Virus record (IMG/VR): IMGVR_UViG_2721755676_000003
Span: 1 to 51,015 of that record
DNA from: a virus
Taxonomy: Duplodnaviria; Heunggongvirae; Uroviricota; Caudoviricetes
DNA: 51,015 nucleotides
Direction: 5' to 3' (one strand)
The position numbers and the translations under genes are program-made. Below are positions 18,253-24,845 of the stretch, piece after piece. The notes under the pieces are model-generated. The model was not told the origin of the DNA and did not search any database. It saw nothing but the letters and a program-made list of their open reading frames with translations. The stretch's first letter is position 1; the number at the start of each line of letters is the position of its first letter.

Positions 18253-18615
18253 GTGAATACATATCAAATCACTTTGCCCTGGCCGCCGAGCAATAACCGG
18301 TATTACCGGCACAACCGCGGGCGTACACACATTAGCGCTGATGGCGTTGCGTACCGTTATGCGGTCGCAAGTGTCATTCGAAGCGCCCGACTTAATATCC
18401 GCACGGCCGCACCACTCAAAATCCGTATTGAATGTCACATGCCCGACCGCCGGCGCCGCGATCTGGATAACCTGCAGAAGGCAGCTTTTGACGCTTTAAC
18501 CAGGGCGGGATTCTGGCTGGATGACAGCCAGGTTGTGGATTATCGCGTTGTGAAAATGCCTGTAGTTAAGGGCGGGAAGTTAGAACTCACCATCACCGAG
18601 CTGGAGATCGCATGA
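18253..18615 (+). CDS. rusA: Holliday-junction resolvase RusA
   Basis: [30 protein letters not shown]...[27 protein letters not shown]...[16 protein letters not shown] is near-identical to recalled E. coli RusA; GTG start chosen to match MNTY. Confidence 0.9.
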
Positions 18616-19445
18616 ACCTTGAAAACACCCTCAAATATCACTTCGCCAAATCGACAATGATTAGCGACTCTCCGCGTGCAACGGCGTCAGACTCATTAAC
18701 CGGAACGGATATCATGGCTGCGATGGGCATGACGCAGGAACGGGCAGCCTTGGGGTACAGTGCTTTTCTTGGGAAGATGGGTATCAGCAACAATGACCGG
18801 GAGAGGGCGATTGAGTTGCTGGCCCATTACGCGCTGACTAAGTGCGACCGGGTGGCTGCGCTGCGCAAACTGGATGCCGGGGTTAAGCCACTGGTGATGC
18901 ACCAGCTGGCCACCTTCGCGTTTGAGGACTATTCCCGCAGCGCCGCCAGCGTGAAGCAGTGCGATGGCTGCAATGGGGAAGGGTTTATTGACGCTGAGGT
19001 ATTCAGCATGAAGTCTCACACTCCGGCAAAAGATAAGAAGTTCGTGAAGATGTCTTTGCACATGGGCGCGGAGGATATTCGACCTTCTGAGTATGAGGTG
19101 CGTAGGCAGGTCATGGAGGTAGCGCGCGTTCTCTGCCCTCAGTGCAAGGGTAAGAAGGTTGTAAGTTGTGCCTGTAAAGATTGCCATGGACGCGGGAAAA
19201 CCGTTAATCAGGTTCTTACTGAACAGCAGGGTGTGCCGGTTCTGGCTGATTGCAAGCGCTGCAGTGGGCGGGGGTTTGAGCGAATTCCATCAACTGAGGC
19301 TTACGCAGCTTTAAGGGAGATAACGGATGCAATCAGCATCGATACATGGAAGAAATCTGTTAAGCCATTCTACGATCAGCTCATCACAAAGTTTGACATC
19401 GAAGAGGCCTGGGCTGATGCGCAGCTGAAGCAGATAACAAAATAG
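18612..19445 (+). CDS. Late antiterminator Q (Phage_antitermQ-type, zinc-binding)
   Basis: 277-aa ORF; N-terminus ([33 protein letters not shown]) and Cys cluster (CPQCKGKK...[10 protein letters not shown]) match recalled lambdoid Q proteins; followed by PR'/qut-like sequence. Confidence 0.8.
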
Positions 19446-19467
19446 GGCGTGAATTTATCGTGAACTA

Positions 19468-19515
19468 TTTACTTTTCCCGAATCTGTGGTAATTTTGCTC
19501 TAACGATGGGTTATT
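19468..19515 (+). promoter_or_regulatory. PR'-like late promoter with qut-like region
   Basis: -35 TTTACT, 16-nt spacer, -10 TAATTT, then CTCTAACGATGGGTTATTGCCTTCGTT, resembling recalled lambda PR' (TTGACT...TAAATT TGACTCAACGATGGGTTAATTCGCTCGTTG). Confidence 0.5.
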
Positions 19516-19525
19516 GCCTTCGTTT

Positions 19526-19558
19526 AAAGCCCTGCGGTTAACCCCGTGGGGCTTTTTG
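19526..19558 (+). terminator. Intrinsic terminator downstream of PR' (tR'-like, target of Q antitermination)
   Basis: AGCCCTGCGG-ttaacc-CCGTGGGGCT followed by TTTTT; stem includes two G:U wobble pairs. Confidence 0.5.
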
Positions 19559-19636
19559 CTTCTGGCGATTTAAGAATTATTGAAGAGTTAGCGCTGTAAC
19601 GGAAAAAAAAGTGATGCTTCGCCAGCTGCGAGCCTT

Positions 19637-19930
19637 TTAGTATCCATGGAAGAAGTAGCGAATCTTCAAGCCGATAAACTTCAACACTGGCCAGACATAA
19701 TGCTGGATTAAATATAGGACCGGTGGAACAACTAATGTCGCACCAGTTGCGCAGAGTGCGTATACCGCCGAGTCCTTTGCGATTAATGAGTAATTTAGGT
19801 TAAGTGTTTCAAGATTAATTACATTGGCTGTACTCGAACCTACAAATCCAGAGCCAAAAACAACCAGAAACACATAAAGTGATACTGTTATGAGCCTTAA
19901 AATTAACCGAATGTATTTCACGATGAACAC
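19637..19930 (-). CDS. Hypothetical small membrane protein (antisense to late leader)
   Basis: 97-aa hydrophobic ORF with GTG start and no clear RBS; could be spurious. Confidence 0.25.
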   Translation of the reverse strand: MFIVKYIRLILRLITVSLYVFLVVFGSGFVGSSTANVINLETLNLNYSLIAKDSAVYALCATGATLVVPPVLYLIQHYVWPVLKFIGLKIRYFFHGY

Positions 19931-20161
19931 CTGCTGATTGATTCATCGTTTTACACAAATGCCATCTGTTTAGCTAGCTTCTAGGTCGCTTGGTTCTAAA
20001 TAATATCCTGTTCATTGCCTTACCCTCACATCGCCAGCCTGTCGCTGGCTTTTTAATTTCAGGCTCCAGGAACCATCATCGACACGCCTTCTTGTTAAAT
20101 CGTCCCGACGGACAGACCCTTTTCAAACACACAGCACCCGCTAACTACGCGAGGTGAGAGT

Positions 20162-20386
20162 ATGTATCGCATGGACAAACTAACCACCGGTGCTGCTTAC
20201 GGCGCTTCAGCCGGTAGCATCCTAAACGGTATGCTGAATGCCTACAGTCCCGAGCAGTGGAACGCTATCGGCGTGCTGGTGGGCATCATCATCGCTGTAC
20301 TGACGTATCTGACGAATCTCTATTTCAAAATCCGCGAAGACAACCGCCGCAGCAGGAGCCGAGATGAACCCGACACTCCGAAATAA
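20162..20386 (+). CDS. Class II holin (phage 21 S21-type pinholin) with dual-start motif
   Basis: [19 protein letters not shown]...[17 protein letters not shown] closely resembles recalled S21; two Met codons (M1, M4) suggest antiholin/holin dual start. Confidence 0.8.
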
Positions 20387-20858
20387 GCTGGTGGGCGCCG
20401 TTGTTGGCGGAGCCAGCGCAATCACTATTGCAGCTGTGATGCTGGGCAATGCGGATGGACTTGAAGGAAGACGCTATTACGCTTATCAAGACGTCGTTGG
20501 TGTCTGGACTGTTTGCGATGGCCACACCGGCGCTGACATTCGCCGCGGTCACCGCTACACAGATAAAGAATGTGACGCTTTGCTGCAGTCTGATTTGCAA
20601 CAAGTAGCTAACGCCATTGACCCGCTGATCAATGTTCACATCCCTGAGCCAACCCGCGCCGCGCTTTACTCTTTCACCTACAACGTAGGAGCTGGAGCGT
20701 TTAGCAGATCGACGCTGCTGAAAAAATTAAATTCCGGCGACGTTCCGGGTGCATGCAAAGAACTGCAGCGCTGGACGTATGCCGGTGGCAAACAGTGGAA
20801 GGGGCTTATCACCCGGCGCGAGATTGAGCGCGAAGTCTGCGAGTGGGGCCAGAAATGA
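20364..20858 (+). CDS. SAR endolysin (signal-anchor-release lysozyme, GH24/T4-lysozyme fold)
   Basis: N-terminal Gly/Ala-rich weak TM ([20 protein letters not shown]) followed by lysozyme E...D...T catalytic region ([22 protein letters not shown]); start overlaps holin 3' end. Confidence 0.8.
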
Positions 20859-21316
20859 GTCGAATAACAGCCATCATCTGCGCTGTCGTTATCTGCCTGC
20901 TGGTTTCTATGACATGGGCGATTAACCACTACCGTAGCAACGCCATCACCTACAAAGAACAACGCGATAAAGCCACTGAGAAACTCAGCCTGGCGAACGC
21001 CACCATCAAAGATATGCAGACCCGGCAGCGAGATGTCGCTGCACTGGATGCTAAATACACGAAGGAATTAGCTGATGCGAAATCTCAGCTTGAAGATCTG
21101 CAGCGTTGTGTTAGCTATGGCAAGTGTGGGCTGCACGTCAACGCAAGATGTCCCGCGAACGGAACGGCCAGCGCCACCGGCCTGGATGATGCAACCGGCC
21201 CCCGACTTACTGAAGCCGCTGAACGGGATTATTTCACCCTCAGAGAGCGAATCGAAACCAGCGGGAAAATGATTGCTGGGTTGCAGGATTACATAAAGCA
21301 GCAGTGCTTAAATTGA
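20855..21316 (+). CDS. Rz-like inner-membrane spanin (i-spanin)
   Basis: N-terminal TM, coiled-coil body; ATGA overlap with endolysin stop; contains embedded Rz1 in the +1 frame. Confidence 0.7.
21075..21272 (+). CDS. Rz1-like outer-membrane lipoprotein spanin (o-spanin), embedded in Rz
   Basis: Lipobox LAMASVGC and Pro-rich [24 protein letters not shown] resembling recalled lambda Rz1. Confidence 0.7.
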
Positions 21317-21392
21317 TTTTCATGCTGGCATTCAAGATCGTATGATTAAAGGGATTATTAATCATGCAAATGCGAAGTCAGAGGGACTGAAG

Positions 21393-21827
21393 ATGTCAAA
21401 CTACAGGATAAAAGCCGCTGGAAGCCATAGCGGTAACTTGAGCGCAGTGATAGACAAAGTGATTCAGGTTGCATCAGCAAAAGAAAACAAGGATGTGTTG
21501 GTTTTAGTGTCGCAAATCAACTTAGCGAAGGATGACAATAGAATTGAGCAAATCTTTGGCGAGCTTATGTTTGATCTCTTGGTGAAAAAAAGAGAAAACA
21601 TTGTTGGTATTGGGGATGTGAACTTTGAGGTCCAGCCTTATTCCTATGTCAAAAACAATACTCACCGAGCATTCGGCCGAACTGTCGTTGTTTTGAACCC
21701 TAGCACGCAAGACATGGATGCTTTTTTGCAGAAAGGTGATTCTACGGTTGATTGGATCGCTGTTGAAATACATTTGGACGGAGAACTCGATAGTTGGGTG
21801 CAGGCAAACCAAGCCTCCGACATTTAA
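21393..21827 (+). CDS. Hypothetical protein (moron between lysis and packaging modules)
   Basis: ORF with RBS GAGGGA before the internal ATG at 21393 (ORF-track start 21342); followed by a strong terminator; no motif recognised. Confidence 0.4.
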   Translation: MSNYRIKAAGSHSGNLSAVIDKVIQVASAKENKDVLVLVSQINLAKDDNRIEQIFGELMFDLLVKKRENIVGIGDVNFEVQPYSYVKNNTHRAFGRTVVVLNPSTQDMDAFLQKGDSTVDWIAVEIHLDGELDSWVQANQASDI

Positions 21828-21842
21828 GTGCAATGCATATAC

Positions 21843-21867
21843 AAACCGCCTCTGGGCGGTTTTTTAT
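21843..21867 (+). terminator. Rho-independent terminator
   Basis: AAACCGCC-tctg-GGCGGTTT followed by TTTTATT. Confidence 0.65.
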
Positions 21868-21960
21868 TGCTATCACGATGGGTAGGCTCATCATAATGGC
21901 AATATCCCCTACAGCGGATAATCAACAAAATATCCCCGAAAGCGGATAAAGAGGCTCTCA

Positions 21961-22164
21961 ATGTCCGACATCTACATCATCAAACTGACTACGAACGACG
22001 GCGGCGAGTACATGGGCACGATGTCACGACGTCAACCTGAGTTGGTTAACGGCTTTGTGCCGCTGGCGACGGAAACGGGCGAGTGGCTGTATTTCGCTCC
22101 GGCCGATGTGAAGCGTGTGCAGTTCAGTCCCTTGGAAGAGAGCATTGAAGAAAAGGGCGAATGA
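21961..22164 (+). CDS. Hypothetical small protein
   Basis: 67-aa ORF with RBS AGAGG; no motif recognised. Confidence 0.35.
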   Translation: MSDIYIIKLTTNDGGEYMGTMSRRQPELVNGFVPLATETGEWLYFAPADVKRVQFSPLEESIEEKGE

Positions 22165-22176
22165 TCGCCCTATGCA

Positions 22177-22449
22177 TTAACCGCGGGCCTCTCGGCCTTC
22201 TTCATCCTCAGGAACGCGGTATCGCCAGTATTTTTCAGGTTTAACCCAAACGACATCATCCCCGCTATCAACTCTAAATTTATTGATGACTCTGGTTGAT
22301 AGCGCTTGGTTGCCATCCGCATTTTCTTTGAGATGCTGCTCGTTATTTTGTTTAACGAGGTAATCGACAACATCTTGCTGATAAAGGCAACCATCTTTTG
22401 CTAGGGTTGACATCATCCAAGATGAAACATCATCTAAAGACAGCGCCAA
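22177..22449 (-). CDS. Hypothetical small protein (antisense to late operon)
   Basis: 90-aa ORF, acidic C-terminus; no motif recognised. Confidence 0.35.
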   Translation of the reverse strand: MALSLDDVSSWMMSTLAKDGCLYQQDVVDYLVKQNNEQHLKENADGNQALSTRVINKFRVDSGDDVVWVKPEKYWRYRVPEDEEGREARG

Positions 22450-22460
22450 TGTGCTTGGGT

Positions 22461-22682
22461 TTATGGCTTTGGGTTATTTGATGTCAGGGATTCTTCAGGG
22501 AATACTCCATGATCGAGTTTTTTCCCAGAGAACCATTGGCACTTGTATTCACCAGTGTAATACCAGCCTTTTGCAGATGTAAAGTCCTTAATCTGCTCGG
22601 CAACGGACATGCTTGGACCACCGCTAACCAAGTAAACGATATCGCCAACTTTAAATTTGAGCTTATTAGCACTATTAGACAT
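22461..22682 (-). CDS. Small conserved protein, YodC/DUF2158-like (tentative)
   Basis: Last 73 codons of ORF-track 22461..23183: MSNSANKLKFKVGDIVYLVSGGPSMSV...KGWYYTGEYKCQWF with RBS AGGA; the upstream part of the long ORF is antisense read-through of terS. Confidence 0.4.
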   Translation of the reverse strand: MSNSANKLKFKVGDIVYLVSGGPSMSVAEQIKDFTSAKGWYYTGEYKCQWFSGKKLDHGVFPEESLTSNNPKP

Positions 22683-22710
22683 ACAACATCCTTTTAAAAA
22701 AAAGAAAACC

Positions 22711-23274
22711 ATGGCACTCACAGACAAACAAGAAATGTTCTGTCGCGAGTACCTCATCGATTTAAACGCCACGCAAGCGGCTATTCGGGCGGGGTACAGC
22801 GCAAAGACAGCTAACCGCACCGCGTCCGAAAACCTGTCAAAACCTGACATCCAGTCCAGAATTGCCGAACTTAAAGCGCAACGCAATGATCTGGTTGGCA
22901 TAAATGCGACATACGTCCTGAATCGTCTCGTTGAAATCGACCAGATGGACGTGCTCGACATTCTGACATCGACCGGAGATCTGAAGCCGGTTTCTGAGTG
23001 GCCGAAGGTCTGGAGGACGACGCTATCCGGGCTTGATGTCGTTGAGATATCAGCCGAAGGAAACACAGCCGCGCTGCTTAAGAAGATTAAGTGGCCTGAT
23101 AAGGTGAAGAACCTTGAGCTTCTCGGGAAGCACGTTCGCGTGCAGGCTTTCAAAGAGCAGGTCGAGCAAAAGGTCACTGCCACTCACAGCATCATGCCGG
23201 TGCCGTCCTGCGATAACGTAGACGAGTGGGAAGCAGCAGCACAGAAGCAGCAGAGCGAGGTTCTTGGTGGATGA
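22711..23274 (+). CDS. Terminase small subunit
   Basis: MALTDKQEMFCREYLIDLNATQAAIRAGYS matches the recalled Terminase_2-type small-subunit N-terminus; immediately upstream of the large subunit. Confidence 0.75.
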   Translation: MALTDKQEMFCREYLIDLNATQAAIRAGYSAKTANRTASENLSKPDIQSRIAELKAQRNDLVGINATYVLNRLVEIDQMDVLDILTSTGDLKPVSEWPKVWRTTLSGLDVVEISAEGNTAALLKKIKWPDKVKNLELLGKHVRVQAFKEQVEQKVTATHSIMPVPSCDNVDEWEAAAQKQQSEVLGG

Positions 23275-24845
23275 ATTACAAAGTCGTCTGGAAACCTTTG
23301 CCGGGATCCCAATCTCTCTCCCTGAGTTGCCCATGCAACGAAATTCTCTACGAGGGTACACGTGGGCCAGGTAAAACCGCTGCGCAGCTGGCACGCTTTC
23401 GTCGTCTTGTTGGGCTGGGATATGGCTCGTTCTGGCGTGGCGTGATATTTGATACCGAATATAAAAACCTCACAGACATCATTACTCAGTCGAAGCGTAT
23501 GTACCGCCTTTTTAACGACGGTGCGCGCTATCTGGCGTCAGCATCTGAGCTACGCTGGGTGTGGCCGACTGGCGAAGAACTGCTGTTCCGCTTCGGGAAA
23601 GAAGAGGGTGATTACTGGGACTACCACGGTCAGGAGTTCCCGTTCATAGGTTTTAACGAGCTGACCAAGCAGCAGTCATCTGAGTTTTACGAGATGATGT
23701 TCTCGTGTCGGCGATCGTCGTTCCGGCCTGAGAACTATCCTCGTGAGGATGGCTCTCTGCTTAAGCCGATTCCCTTGGAGACTTTCAGCACGACCAACCC
23801 TTTCGGCATCGGTCACGCTTGGGTGAAGAAGCGCTTTATCGAGCCGGCTCCGCGCGGCACCATCATTCGCGAAACGCAGAAGGTGTTCAACCCGCAGACC
23901 GAGCGTGAAGAAGACGTCACGCTTACCCGTGTTGCGATTCACGGCTCGTTCAAAGAGAACCCGTTCCTAGATCCGCAATACATCGCAACGCTGATGGCCA
24001 TCAAAGACCCGAATCGCCGAAAAGCCTGGGTCGAGGGTTCTTGGGACGTAACCAGCGGTGGACGCTTTGACCATCTGTGGAATGCCTCACATCACGTCAT
24101 CAAGCCGTTCCGCATACCGGACAGTTGGGTGGTTGACCGCTCTCACGACTGGGGAGAATCGAAGCCGTTCTCAAACCTGTGGTGGGCATGCGCCGATGGC
24201 ACCGCGGCTGAGCTACAGGATGGTCGTCAGTTTTGCCCGCCCGCAGGGTCGCTGATCCTGATTGGTGAGTGGTACGGTTGCCCCCCGGATGAGTTGAACA
24301 AAGGTCTTAATATGTCCTCCACCAACGTCGCCAAAGGCGTTGCGTGGGTTGATAGGCGACTGGCTGGCGAAGAACTTGCCGAACCCGAAGAGATCAAACT
24401 CAACAGCGTCACTCAGGGGCAGCTGAACATCATGCCCGGAATTTGTAAGAAGGTTGTTCCCGGTCCGGCTGATGGCGCAATTTACAACACCGGCGATGAC
24501 GAGTTATCTATTGCTCAGAAGATGGAGGCTCAGGGTGTTAAGTGGCTTGAAGCAAACAAAAAACCGGGTTCGCGCGTTAACGGCGCAGCCCTGTTTGCCG
24601 ATATGCTCGAAGCCGTCATTGAAGGTATAAAGCTAGAGTCGGGTTTGCCTGAGAAGCCAGCATTCTACGTCTTTGACTACTGCCGAGGCTGGATAAGCCG
24701 TGTTCCGGTGCTGGTTCGAGACAGTAAGAACCCCGATGACGTTGACACCCAGCAGGAAGACCATGACTGGGACAGCACTCGTTATCGTGTACTGCATAAT
24801 CCATCCAGACCTGCATACTCAATCACAATGGACACCACTTTCTGA
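23271..24845 (+). CDS. Terminase large subunit
   Basis: About 525 aa from the ATG overlapping the terS stop; size and position; ATPase/nuclease family assignment by context. Confidence 0.75.
   Translation: MNYKVVWKPLPGSQSLSLSCPCNEILYEGTRGPGKTAAQLARFRRLVGLGYGSFWRGVIFDTEYKNLTDIITQSKRMYRLFNDGARYLASASELRWVWPTGEELLFRFGKEEGDYWDYHGQEFPFIGFNELTKQQSSEFYEMMFSCRRSSFRPENYPREDGSLLKPIPLETFSTTNPFGIGHAWVKKRFIEPAPRGTIIRETQKVFNPQTEREEDVTLTRVAIHGSFKENPFLDPQYIATLMAIKDPNRRKAWVEGSWDVTSGGRFDHLWNASHHVIKPFRIPDSWVVDRSHDWGESKPFSNLWWACADGTAAELQDGRQFCPPAGSLILIGEWYGCPPDELNKGLNMSSTNVAKGVAWVDRRLAGEELAEPEEIKLNSVTQGQLNIMPGICKKVVPGPADGAIYNTGDDELSIAQKMEAQGVKWLEANKKPGSRVNGAALFADMLEAVIEGIKLESGLPEKPAFYVFDYCRGWISRVPVLVRDSKNPDDVDTQQEDHDWDSTRYRVLHNPSRPAYSITMDTTF

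What the first reader, a model, noticed from the sequence alone, without database searches (positions are those of the whole stretch)
21317..21867. Moron with own terminator between lysis cassette and packaging genes
Seen: an ORF of about 145 aa (start probably ATG 21393, RBS GAGGGA) with no recognisable motif, followed by a strong intrinsic terminator (AAACCGCC/GGCGGTTT plus T-run). The lysis/terS boundary is a frequent moron site (bor and lom-type genes). Function is unknown and may be expressed in the lysogen.
Basis: partly seen in the sequence, partly recalled or inferred. Interest (0 to 1): 0.4.

Follow-up and report, generated by a model that had tools for sequence, protein, structure and literature searches.

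The report
Orphan cargo gene after phage lysis genes
This is a real, conserved 144-amino-acid gene of unknown function in a swap-in "cargo slot" between the lysis and DNA-packaging genes of a lambda-like prophage: an ordinary kind of phage accessory gene, but from a protein family nobody has described.

Summary
ORF 21393-21827 (+), 144 aa, has Shine-Dalgarno GAGGGA and is followed by an intrinsic terminator (stem 21843-21850/21855-21862, T-run). It is a real gene: about 44 homologue clusters, codon-position divergence 3>1>2, and no match in Pfam, PHROGs, NCBIfam, PADLOC or PDB sequences.

The "moron" reading is partly supported. The gene is AT-richer than its neighbours. It is absent from close relatives: phage ENT1 carries rha plus another gene at the same place, and phi80 carries rha, tai and ati. 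In about 20 different prophage backbones examined it always follows the last lysis gene.

Two points need correction:
- **The terminator is not private to this ORF.** It belongs to a conserved terminator-plus-hairpin block found in at least 120 viral contigs. The ORF just upstream of that block falls into at least 50 unrelated families.
- **An independent promoter is not shown.** Promoter-like hexamers in the window are weak, and no terminator separates Rz from the ORF. The gene must therefore be read with the Q-dependent late transcript.

The predicted protein (pLDDT 91.5) is an acidic cytoplasmic alpha/beta domain. An earlier model of the same fold gave only generic RecA/ASCE-like matches, and there are no Walker motifs. 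It is most likely a binding protein used in phage-phage or phage-host conflict. That function is inferred, not shown.

The parts
20843..21316 (+). Rz i-spanin gene (Rz1 embedded at 21075-21272). It is the last lysis gene and the left, conserved flank of the cargo slot.
   Evidence: Pfam PF03245 at 8e-39 and phrog_13. Homology to phage ENT1 ends at 21254, inside Rz.
21317..21346 (+). Weak sigma-70-like hexamers TTTTCA-18-TATGAT (alternative TTGATT-17-GATCGT). A candidate promoter, not shown to work.
   Evidence: 9 of 12 matches; 4 sites found in the region against 4.7 expected in shuffles; other loci have TTAACA-17-TATCGT/TATCTT at the same place.
21340..21367 (.). Inverted repeat GTATGATTAA / TTAATCATGC with an 8-nt loop. 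It overlaps the -10-like hexamer and lies 14 nt upstream of the Shine-Dalgarno sequence. It could be an operator or an mRNA hairpin; its function is unknown.
   Evidence: Unique in the window, 0 expected by chance. 5 of 10 pairs show changes on both sides, reached by 0 of 500 shuffles; 88% of cells paired against at most 60% when slid. dG -9.6 kcal/mol.
21381..21386 (+). Shine-Dalgarno sequence GAGGGA.
   Evidence: Sequence. A GAGG-type motif is conserved in all loci.
21393..21827 (+). The 144-aa orphan-family gene (16.0 kDa, pI 4.9, no transmembrane segment or signal peptide).
   Evidence: AlphaFold2 model with pLDDT 91.5 and pTM 0.88.
21843..21867 (+). Intrinsic terminator (8-bp stem with 5 G-C pairs, 4-nt loop, T-run). 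It is the first half of the conserved right-hand landmark of the slot.
   Evidence: Conserved.
21865..21904 (+). Second conserved element TATTGCTATCAC...ATAATGGCAATA, foldable as a two-tier hairpin (dG -15.3 kcal/mol). It is the second half of the landmark.
   Evidence: The sequence block is found in at least 120 IMG/VR contigs. Covariation could not be demonstrated.

Best explanation
ORF 21393-21827 is a genuine accessory (cargo) gene. It occupies a hypervariable slot that lambdoid prophages of Enterobacterales keep between their last lysis gene (Rz/Rz1) and a conserved terminator-plus-hairpin block ahead of the packaging genes.

**How it got there (inferred from break-points).** Cargo is exchanged by recombination between the conserved flanks, namely the 3' end of Rz on the left and the terminator block on the right.

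**How it is expressed (partly read from the architecture, partly inferred).** No terminator separates Rz from the ORF. It is therefore transcribed on the Q-antiterminated late transcript together with the lysis genes. A weak sigma-70-like promoter overlapped by a conserved inverted repeat may add expression in the lysogen. In that case the downstream terminator would stop such unmodified transcripts before the packaging genes.

**What the protein does (inferred).** It is a 16-kDa acidic cytoplasmic single-domain alpha/beta protein with a RecA/ASCE-like three-layer fold and no nucleotide-binding motifs. The only residues invariant across all three subfamilies lie in the C-terminal ELxxW helix. 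It therefore most likely acts by binding a partner rather than by catalysis. It probably serves in phage-phage or phage-host conflict (defence or counter-defence), as do TaiEcA and AtiEcA, which occupy the equivalent region of phi80.
For: - **Real gene.**
- **Constant position in different backbones.** The gene sits right after the last lysis gene (72-76 nt after Rz in most subfamily-A loci) in phages with different holins, endolysins and terminases: Terminase_2, Terminase_4 plus HNH, and lambda GpA.
- **Foreign composition.**
- **Alternative cargo between the same flanks.** ENT1 has rha plus a 184-aa protein, with homology ending at 21254 and resuming at 21844. phi80, whose lysis cassette is 86% identical, has rha, tai and ati (PMC11364771).
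- **The terminator block is a landmark.** It occurs in at least 120 viral contigs. The upstream ORFs fall into at least 50 clusters among 112. 61 of 79 loci have a lysis gene upstream and 44 of 68 a terminase downstream. The slot measures 243-2832 nt and is never empty. Distant subfamilies B and C sit in the same slot.
- **Late transcription.** No terminator lies between Rz and the ORF.
- **Spread.** Copies at least 90% identical occur in E. coli, Klebsiella and Enterobacter.
Against: - No function was measured, and the conflict role rests on location alone.
- The fold matches are generic (TM about 0.5, at most 16% identity).
- The gene is absent from all 50,697 isolated-phage genomes. One copy is a frameshifted pseudogene (L015). 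It is therefore dispensable and rare.
- Promoter evidence in the window is at chance level.
- For pairs involving the window, the upstream intergenic region is no more conserved than third codon positions.
Confidence: 0.6

Rival explanations
1. Classical moron. The gene is transcribed in the repressed prophage from its own promoter just after the Rz stop codon. The promoter is controlled through the inverted repeat acting as an operator, and transcription ends at the terminator. The product benefits the lysogen, for example by excluding or aborting other phages.
For: - In other loci, promoter-like hexamers keep the same position and 17-nt spacing: TTAACA-17-TATCGT/TATCTT, some with a TG extension.
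- The inverted repeat spans the -10 and +1 region, is conserved and shows compensatory changes.
- A strong terminator is useful only against RNA polymerase that has not been modified by Q.
- The composition is foreign.
- The gene is kept intact in a degraded Kosakonia prophage remnant.
- TaiEcA in the same region of phi80 is expressed in the lysogen (PMC11364771).
Against: - In the window the consensus hexamers are degraded (TTGATT / GATCGT). The best site is 9 of 12, at chance frequency.
- Compensatory changes with G-T wobbles fit an RNA hairpin better than a protein operator.
- The repeat has no second copy in the window, and none in the immunity region.
- TaiEcA is on the opposite strand to the late genes, whereas this ORF is co-directional with them.
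Confidence: 0.3
2. A late-only gene that serves the phage's own lytic cycle, for example a lysis-timing or packaging helper, or a counter-defence protein made together with the structural proteins (AtiEcA-like logic).
For: - It is co-oriented with the late operon and has no terminator upstream.
- It always sits directly after the last lysis gene.
- atiEcA in phi80 is a co-directional late gene in this region.
Against: - The family occurs with unrelated lysis and packaging modules and is absent from most relatives. It is therefore not a module component.
- One copy is a pseudogene.
- hhalign shows no relation to TerL or to the phi80 slot proteins.
Confidence: 0.3
3. A degenerate or atypical nucleotide-binding enzyme of the P-loop/ASCE class, for example a kinase-like or NTPase-like enzyme.
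For: The top structural matches are thymidine kinase, PhoH, TerL ATPase domains and helicase RecA domains.
Against: - There is no GxxxxGK[ST] motif. Only two residues separate beta1 from alpha1.
- There is no hhhhD[DE] motif. The equivalent strands end in SQ and NP.
- No polar residue other than E131 is invariant across the family.
Confidence: 0.07

Closest known systems
Morons of lambdoid phages as defined by Hendrix, Juhala and colleagues (for example lambda bor, HK97 gp15); cited from my own knowledge plus reference 15 listed in PMC11364771
   Same: - A single extra gene is inserted between conserved modules.
- Its composition differs from the neighbours.
- A terminator follows it.
- It is patchily distributed among relatives, and bor sits at the same junction.
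   Different: - A promoter is not demonstrated.
- The terminator is a shared landmark of the slot, not part of a self-contained cassette.
- The gene is co-directional with late transcription, with no insulating terminator upstream.
- The product is cytoplasmic, not an envelope protein.
TaiEcA/AtiEcA defence and counter-defence pair of phage phi80 (PMC11364771)
   Same: - It lies in the same genomic region, between Rz and the packaging module, of a phage whose lysis cassette is 86% identical to the window's.
- The paper reports that Tai homologues lie 'predominantly upstream of the packaging module'.
   Different: - hhalign finds no sequence relation (probability 0.4%).
- TaiEcA is 204 aa and on the opposite strand.
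- No activity data exist for this ORF.
RecA-like / ASCE P-loop NTPase core domains (TerL ATPase, PhoH, thymidine kinase 1, helicase RecA domains, HelD C-terminal domain)
   Different: Walker A and Walker B motifs are absent. The protein is a single 144-aa domain, and sequence identity is 5-16%.

Membership tests
Moron (lambdoid accessory transcription unit) | Extra gene present in some phages but absent from close relatives that share the flanks | tested here: met
   ENT1 and phi80 share Rz and/or the terminator block but carry other genes. 443 complete E. coli genomes share the endolysin end but lack the E. coli homologue.
Moron (lambdoid accessory transcription unit) | Nucleotide composition different from the neighbouring genes | tested here: met
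   GC 0.425 and GC3 0.469, against 0.52-0.55 and 0.56-0.64. The same holds in other loci.
Moron (lambdoid accessory transcription unit) | Own promoter immediately upstream | tested here: inconclusive
   The window has TTTTCA-18-TATGAT (9 of 12) at chance frequency. Other loci have TTAACA-17-TATCGT/TATCTT. No transcript data are available.
Moron (lambdoid accessory transcription unit) | Factor-independent terminator immediately downstream | tested here: met
   Stem 21843-21862 plus T-run, dG -11.9 kcal/mol. The terminator is, however, shared by at least 50 other cargo families.
Moron (lambdoid accessory transcription unit) | Expressed from the repressed prophage | not testable with these tools
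   This needs RNA-seq, 5'-RACE or a reporter in a lysogen.
P-loop (ASCE) NTPase | Walker A motif GxxxxGK[ST] between beta1 and alpha1 | tested here: not met
   Residues 8-17 are AAGSHSGNLS. Only G10 is conserved within subfamily A, and nothing is conserved across subfamilies. In the pLDDT 91.5 model, alpha1 starts two residues after beta1.
P-loop (ASCE) NTPase | Walker B motif hhhhD[DE] | tested here: not met
   The candidate strands read VLVLVSQ and VVVLNPS, with no acidic pair.
P-loop (ASCE) NTPase | Core alpha/beta fold | tested here: inconclusive
Tai/Ati system (PMC11364771) | Sequence homology to TaiEcA | tested here: not met
   hhalign of A8 against phi80 orf63 gives probability 0.4%. 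tblastn against all phage records, including phi80, finds nothing.
Tai/Ati system (PMC11364771) | [quoted passage not shown] | tested here: met
Tai/Ati system (PMC11364771) | Blocks tail assembly of incoming lambdoid phages | not testable with these tools
   Plaque assays and electron microscopy are needed.
Bor/Lom-type envelope lysogenic-conversion proteins | Signal peptide, lipobox or membrane segment | tested here: not met
   The maximum 19-residue Kyte-Doolittle mean is 0.56, the N-terminus is MSNYRIKAAG, and the pI is 4.9.
Fur-regulated promoter | 19-bp Fur box GATAATGATAATCATTATC overlapping the promoter | tested here: not met
   The best match in the window is 11 of 19, reached by 203 of 500 shuffles. 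Some other loci reach 14-15 of 19.

The most novel reading that the evidence does not exclude
The 144-aa protein is a nucleotide-motif-less mimic of the terminase-ATPase/RecA fold. It would be made with the late genes just ahead of terS and terL, and would act as a decoy or inhibitor for host immunity that senses the large terminase (Avs-type sensors). The lysis-packaging slot, bounded by the conserved terminator-hairpin block, would then be a reservoir of such counter-defence cassettes.
Probability: 0.05. Interest if true: 0.8.

Novelty: new member of a known kind. Interest (0 to 1): 0.4.

Why it matters
The gene itself is one more uncharacterised phage accessory gene. It does define a small orphan family with three subfamilies, about 44 clusters, found only in Enterobacterales prophages, and it has a confident structure model.

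The context is more useful. A sharply bounded slot, from the last lysis gene to a conserved terminator-hairpin block, holds at least 50 unrelated cargo families. In phi80 the same region carries an experimentally proven defence and counter-defence pair. The landmark sequence gives a simple handle for harvesting candidate defence and anti-defence genes from lambdoid prophages, and this ORF is one testable candidate.

Tried and rejected
- **161-aa start at ATG 21342.** Rejected. The homologues are 144 aa. In other loci the upstream ATG opens a short or out-of-frame reading frame. It has no Shine-Dalgarno sequence.
- **Opposite-strand ORF 21522-21833 as the real gene.** Rejected on the codon-position pattern of the + frame.
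- **Family assignment.** Pfam, PHROGs, NCBIfam, PADLOC, PDB sequence profiles and Pfam scans of all 42 members gave nothing consistent.
- **Isolated phages.** Neither the ORF nor the E. coli homologue has a DNA or protein match in 50,697 phage records.
- **Relation to phi80 TaiEcA, to the N15 gp59-like protein or to the window's own TerL.** None found.
- **Fur box at the inverted repeat.** Not supported in the window.
- **Inverted repeat as a repeated operator, for example of the immunity repressor.** There is only one copy in the window.
- **Known RNA families over 19400-22800.** None found.
- **RNA stability of the 5' region.** The z-score is -0.40, not significant.
- **Covariation in the terminator and second hairpin across 52 loci.** No better than shuffles, because the block is too conserved in sequence.

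Full report
**1. What is in the sequence**

The window is a complete lambdoid prophage: integrase at the left end, then Q at 18612-19445, the lysis genes, the packaging genes, and the head and tail genes. Around the finding the order is:
- holin 20162-20386 (PF04971);
- lysozyme 20364-20858 (PF00959);
- Rz 20843-21316 (PF03245, phrog_13), with an embedded Rz1-type ORF at 21075-21272;
- the ORF in question;
- a 67-aa ORF at 21961-22164 (phrog_6581);
- two minus-strand genes, 22177-22449 (DUF6953) and 22461-22682 (DUF2158);
- terS 22657-23274 and terL 23226-24845.

The mechanical ORF is 21342-21827 (161 aa). Nearly all homologues are 144 aa and begin M-A/S-N-Y/F-R-I-K. GAGGGA (21381-21386) sits six bases before ATG 21393.

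The intrinsic terminator is as described: AAACCGCC / TCTG / GGCGGTTT followed by a T-run, 21843-21867, dG -11.9 kcal/mol.

**2. Is it a real gene?**

Yes. A first search found 18 relatives. A profile search found 44 clusters. A full HMMER scan of 1.8 billion cluster representatives found nothing beyond this family, which is therefore small and isolated.

Among 12 orthologues the mean pairwise differences at codon positions 1, 2 and 3 are 0.316, 0.200 and 0.497. This is the signature of purifying selection on the + frame.

One copy (L015) is a frameshifted pseudogene, so the gene is dispensable.

Copies at least 90% identical occur in E. coli, Klebsiella pneumoniae, K. aerogenes, K. oxytoca and Enterobacter hormaechei. 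The window's exact protein is WP_278279774.1, annotated 'hypothetical protein [Escherichia coli]'.

**3. Where the family sits**

In every locus examined the gene follows the last lysis gene. In most subfamily-A loci the gap after Rz is 72-76 nt. The backbones are otherwise different:
- Serratia: holin_3_3, lysozyme and a DUF2570 spanin, with two small ORFs between the spanin and the gene;
- Salmonella: holin_3_1, GH19 endolysin and Rz;
- Cronobacter: two holins, GH19 endolysin and Rz, followed by an HNH/Terminase_4 packaging module;
- Cedecea, Enterobacter, Citrobacter and metagenomic contigs;
- a degraded Kosakonia remnant next to icd;
- a lambda-type E. coli prophage with GpA terminase, for the 47%-identical homologue.

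No isolated phage genome among 50,697 carries the gene.

**4. A variable slot with conserved flanks**

The ORF is AT-richer than its neighbours: GC 0.425 and GC3 0.469, against 0.52-0.55 and 0.56-0.64.

Enterobacter phage ENT1 matches the window up to 21254, inside Rz, and again from 21844, the first base pair of the terminator stem. Between those points it carries rha plus a 184-aa protein.

Phage phi80 has a lysis cassette 86% identical to the window's. Between Rz and cos it carries rha, a 204-aa minus-strand gene and a small plus-strand gene. PMC11364771 identifies genes in this region as the defence gene taiEcA and its antidote atiEcA, and states that Tai homologues lie 'predominantly upstream of the packaging module'.

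The terminator is continuous with a second conserved element, ATTGCYATCAC...GTAATGGC (window 21865-21904). Together they form a block that stays 74-86% identical between most loci whose ORFs are only 62-84% identical. In the two loci where a second terminator replaces the hairpin, the figure falls to 0.53-0.72.

The results of that search were:
- the ORF immediately upstream of the block falls into at least 50 unrelated clusters among 112;
- 61 of 79 loci with enough sequence have a lysis gene within 3.5 kb upstream, and 44 of 68 a terminase within 3.5 kb downstream;
- the distance from Rz to the terminator ranges from 243 to 2832 nt and the slot is never empty, compared with 527 nt in the window;
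- the Citrobacter locus L011 has two cassettes in tandem, each ending in the block;
- distant subfamilies of the 144-aa family (L038 and L117) occupy the same slot.

The terminator is therefore a fixed landmark of the slot, not a private part of this gene. Cargo exchange by recombination in the conserved flanks is the simplest reading. This is an inference from the break-points.

**5. Expression signals**

No terminator lies between Rz and the ORF. Q-modified polymerase coming from the late promoter must therefore transcribe it. This follows from the architecture and from established knowledge of lambdoid late transcription.

For independent transcription the evidence is weak. In the window the best hexamers are TTTTCA-18-TATGAT, 9 of 12, and such sites are no more frequent than in shuffles.

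Other loci share a better-placed pair: TTAACA overlapping the Rz stop codon, 17 nt, then TATCGT or TATCTT, some with a TG extension. The window has TTGATT and GATCGT at those positions. For pairs involving the window, the 60 nt upstream are no more conserved than third codon positions.

A conserved inverted repeat overlaps the -10-like hexamer: GTATGATTAA 21340-21349 and TTAATCATGC 21358-21367.
- Across 13 loci, 5 of 10 pairs change on both sides. Examples are ATGATAAA/TTTATCAT, ATGGTAA/TTACCAT and ATAATAAA/TTTATTAT.
- No shuffle out of 500 reaches this count. 88% of cells are paired, against at most 60% when the partners are slid.
- The repeat is decayed in the pseudogene locus.
- It is unique in the window and is not a convincing Fur box here.

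The repeat could be an operator or an mRNA hairpin. The G-T wobbles favour RNA, but this remains open.

**6. The protein**

It is 16.0 kDa with pI 4.9 and has no hydrophobic segment.

AlphaFold2 with 17 sequences gave pLDDT 81. With 39 sequences it gave pLDDT 91.5 and pTM 0.88, with the same topology.

- Foldseek ranks TerL ATPase domains and PhoH first, at TM about 0.5.

These are generic fold-level matches.

There is no Walker A motif. Beta1 (residues 3-7) is followed after two residues by alpha1 (10-28). There is no Walker B motif either.

Across the three subfamilies only E131, L132, W135 and A141 are invariant, with I42, G56 and L63 nearly so. The invariant residues lie on the C-terminal helix. 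This pattern argues for a binding protein rather than an enzyme. That is an inference.

**7. Verdict**

The 'moron' label is partly right: position, composition, patchy distribution and a following terminator all fit.

The promoter is unproven, the terminator is shared, and the gene is co-directional with late transcription. By analogy with phi80, that orientation is the one used by the counter-defence gene rather than by the lysogen-expressed defence gene.

The function is unknown by homology. My committed reading is a non-enzymatic binding protein used in phage-phage or phage-host conflict, with roughly equal weight on lysogen-expressed defence and late-expressed counter-defence or helper.

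It is a new member of a known kind. The slot and its landmark are the more reusable result.

Noticed in passing
window 21843-21904; loci L030-L149: The terminator plus the ATTGCYATCAC...GTAATGGC block is a conserved island between two variable regions. It occurs in at least 120 IMG/VR contigs. The inner part of the second hairpin is replaced in some loci by other self-complementary sequences: ATTATTCATT...AGTGAATAG, TACTAT...ATAGTA in E. coli locus L152, or a second terminator AAAGGCCAC...GTGGCTTTTTT. Its function is unknown. It could be an RNA processing or stability element, a recombination joint or a protein-binding site.
   Followed up: partly
L011 6440-6520 and 7819-7892: In Citrobacter murliniae two cargo cassettes lie in tandem, the 144-aa gene and then a 67-aa ORF among others. 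Each ends with the same terminator-hairpin block, which resembles a small cassette array.
   Followed up: partly
window 21902-21949: Direct repeat ATATCCCCnAnAGCGGATAA in two copies, each internally palindromic (TATCC...GGATA), just ahead of ORF 21961-22164 (67 aa, phrog_6581). Phage ENT1 also has both copies. L006, L011 and L019 each have a single, partly diverged copy. It may be an operator or promoter region for the downstream gene.
   Followed up: no
window 22154-22682 (- strand): Two minus-strand genes, DUF6953 (22177-22449) and DUF2158 (22461-22682), run against the late transcription direction. They have low GC (0.44 and 0.41) and their own minus-strand terminator (22171-22154). This is the orientation of the lysogen-expressed taiEcA in phi80, so they are better candidates for prophage-expressed genes than the ORF in the finding.
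   Followed up: partly
window 19600-20100: Another low-GC patch (0.40-0.42) lies between Q and the holin. It holds a minus-strand 97-aa ORF (19637-19930) rich in hydrophobic residues, and plus-strand terminator-like hairpins at 19526 and 20033. It may be a second accessory-gene site next to the late promoter region.
   Followed up: no
L015 6001-6432 and its upstream 60 nt: This copy of the gene is frameshifted, and in the same locus the right arm of the upstream inverted repeat has decayed (TTTTAAT instead of TTATCAT). The two features appear to be lost together.
   Followed up: partly
P0025: A 5077-aa protein matched the family profile weakly (E 2e-5) in three stretches, over profile positions 81-136. 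This is probably spurious and was not examined.
   Followed up: no
L152 6780-7560 versus RefSeq E. coli: 443 complete E. coli genomes share the end of the TIGR02594-type endolysin next to the E. coli homologue but lack the homologue itself. The same slot therefore carries other cargo in many E. coli prophages.
   Followed up: no
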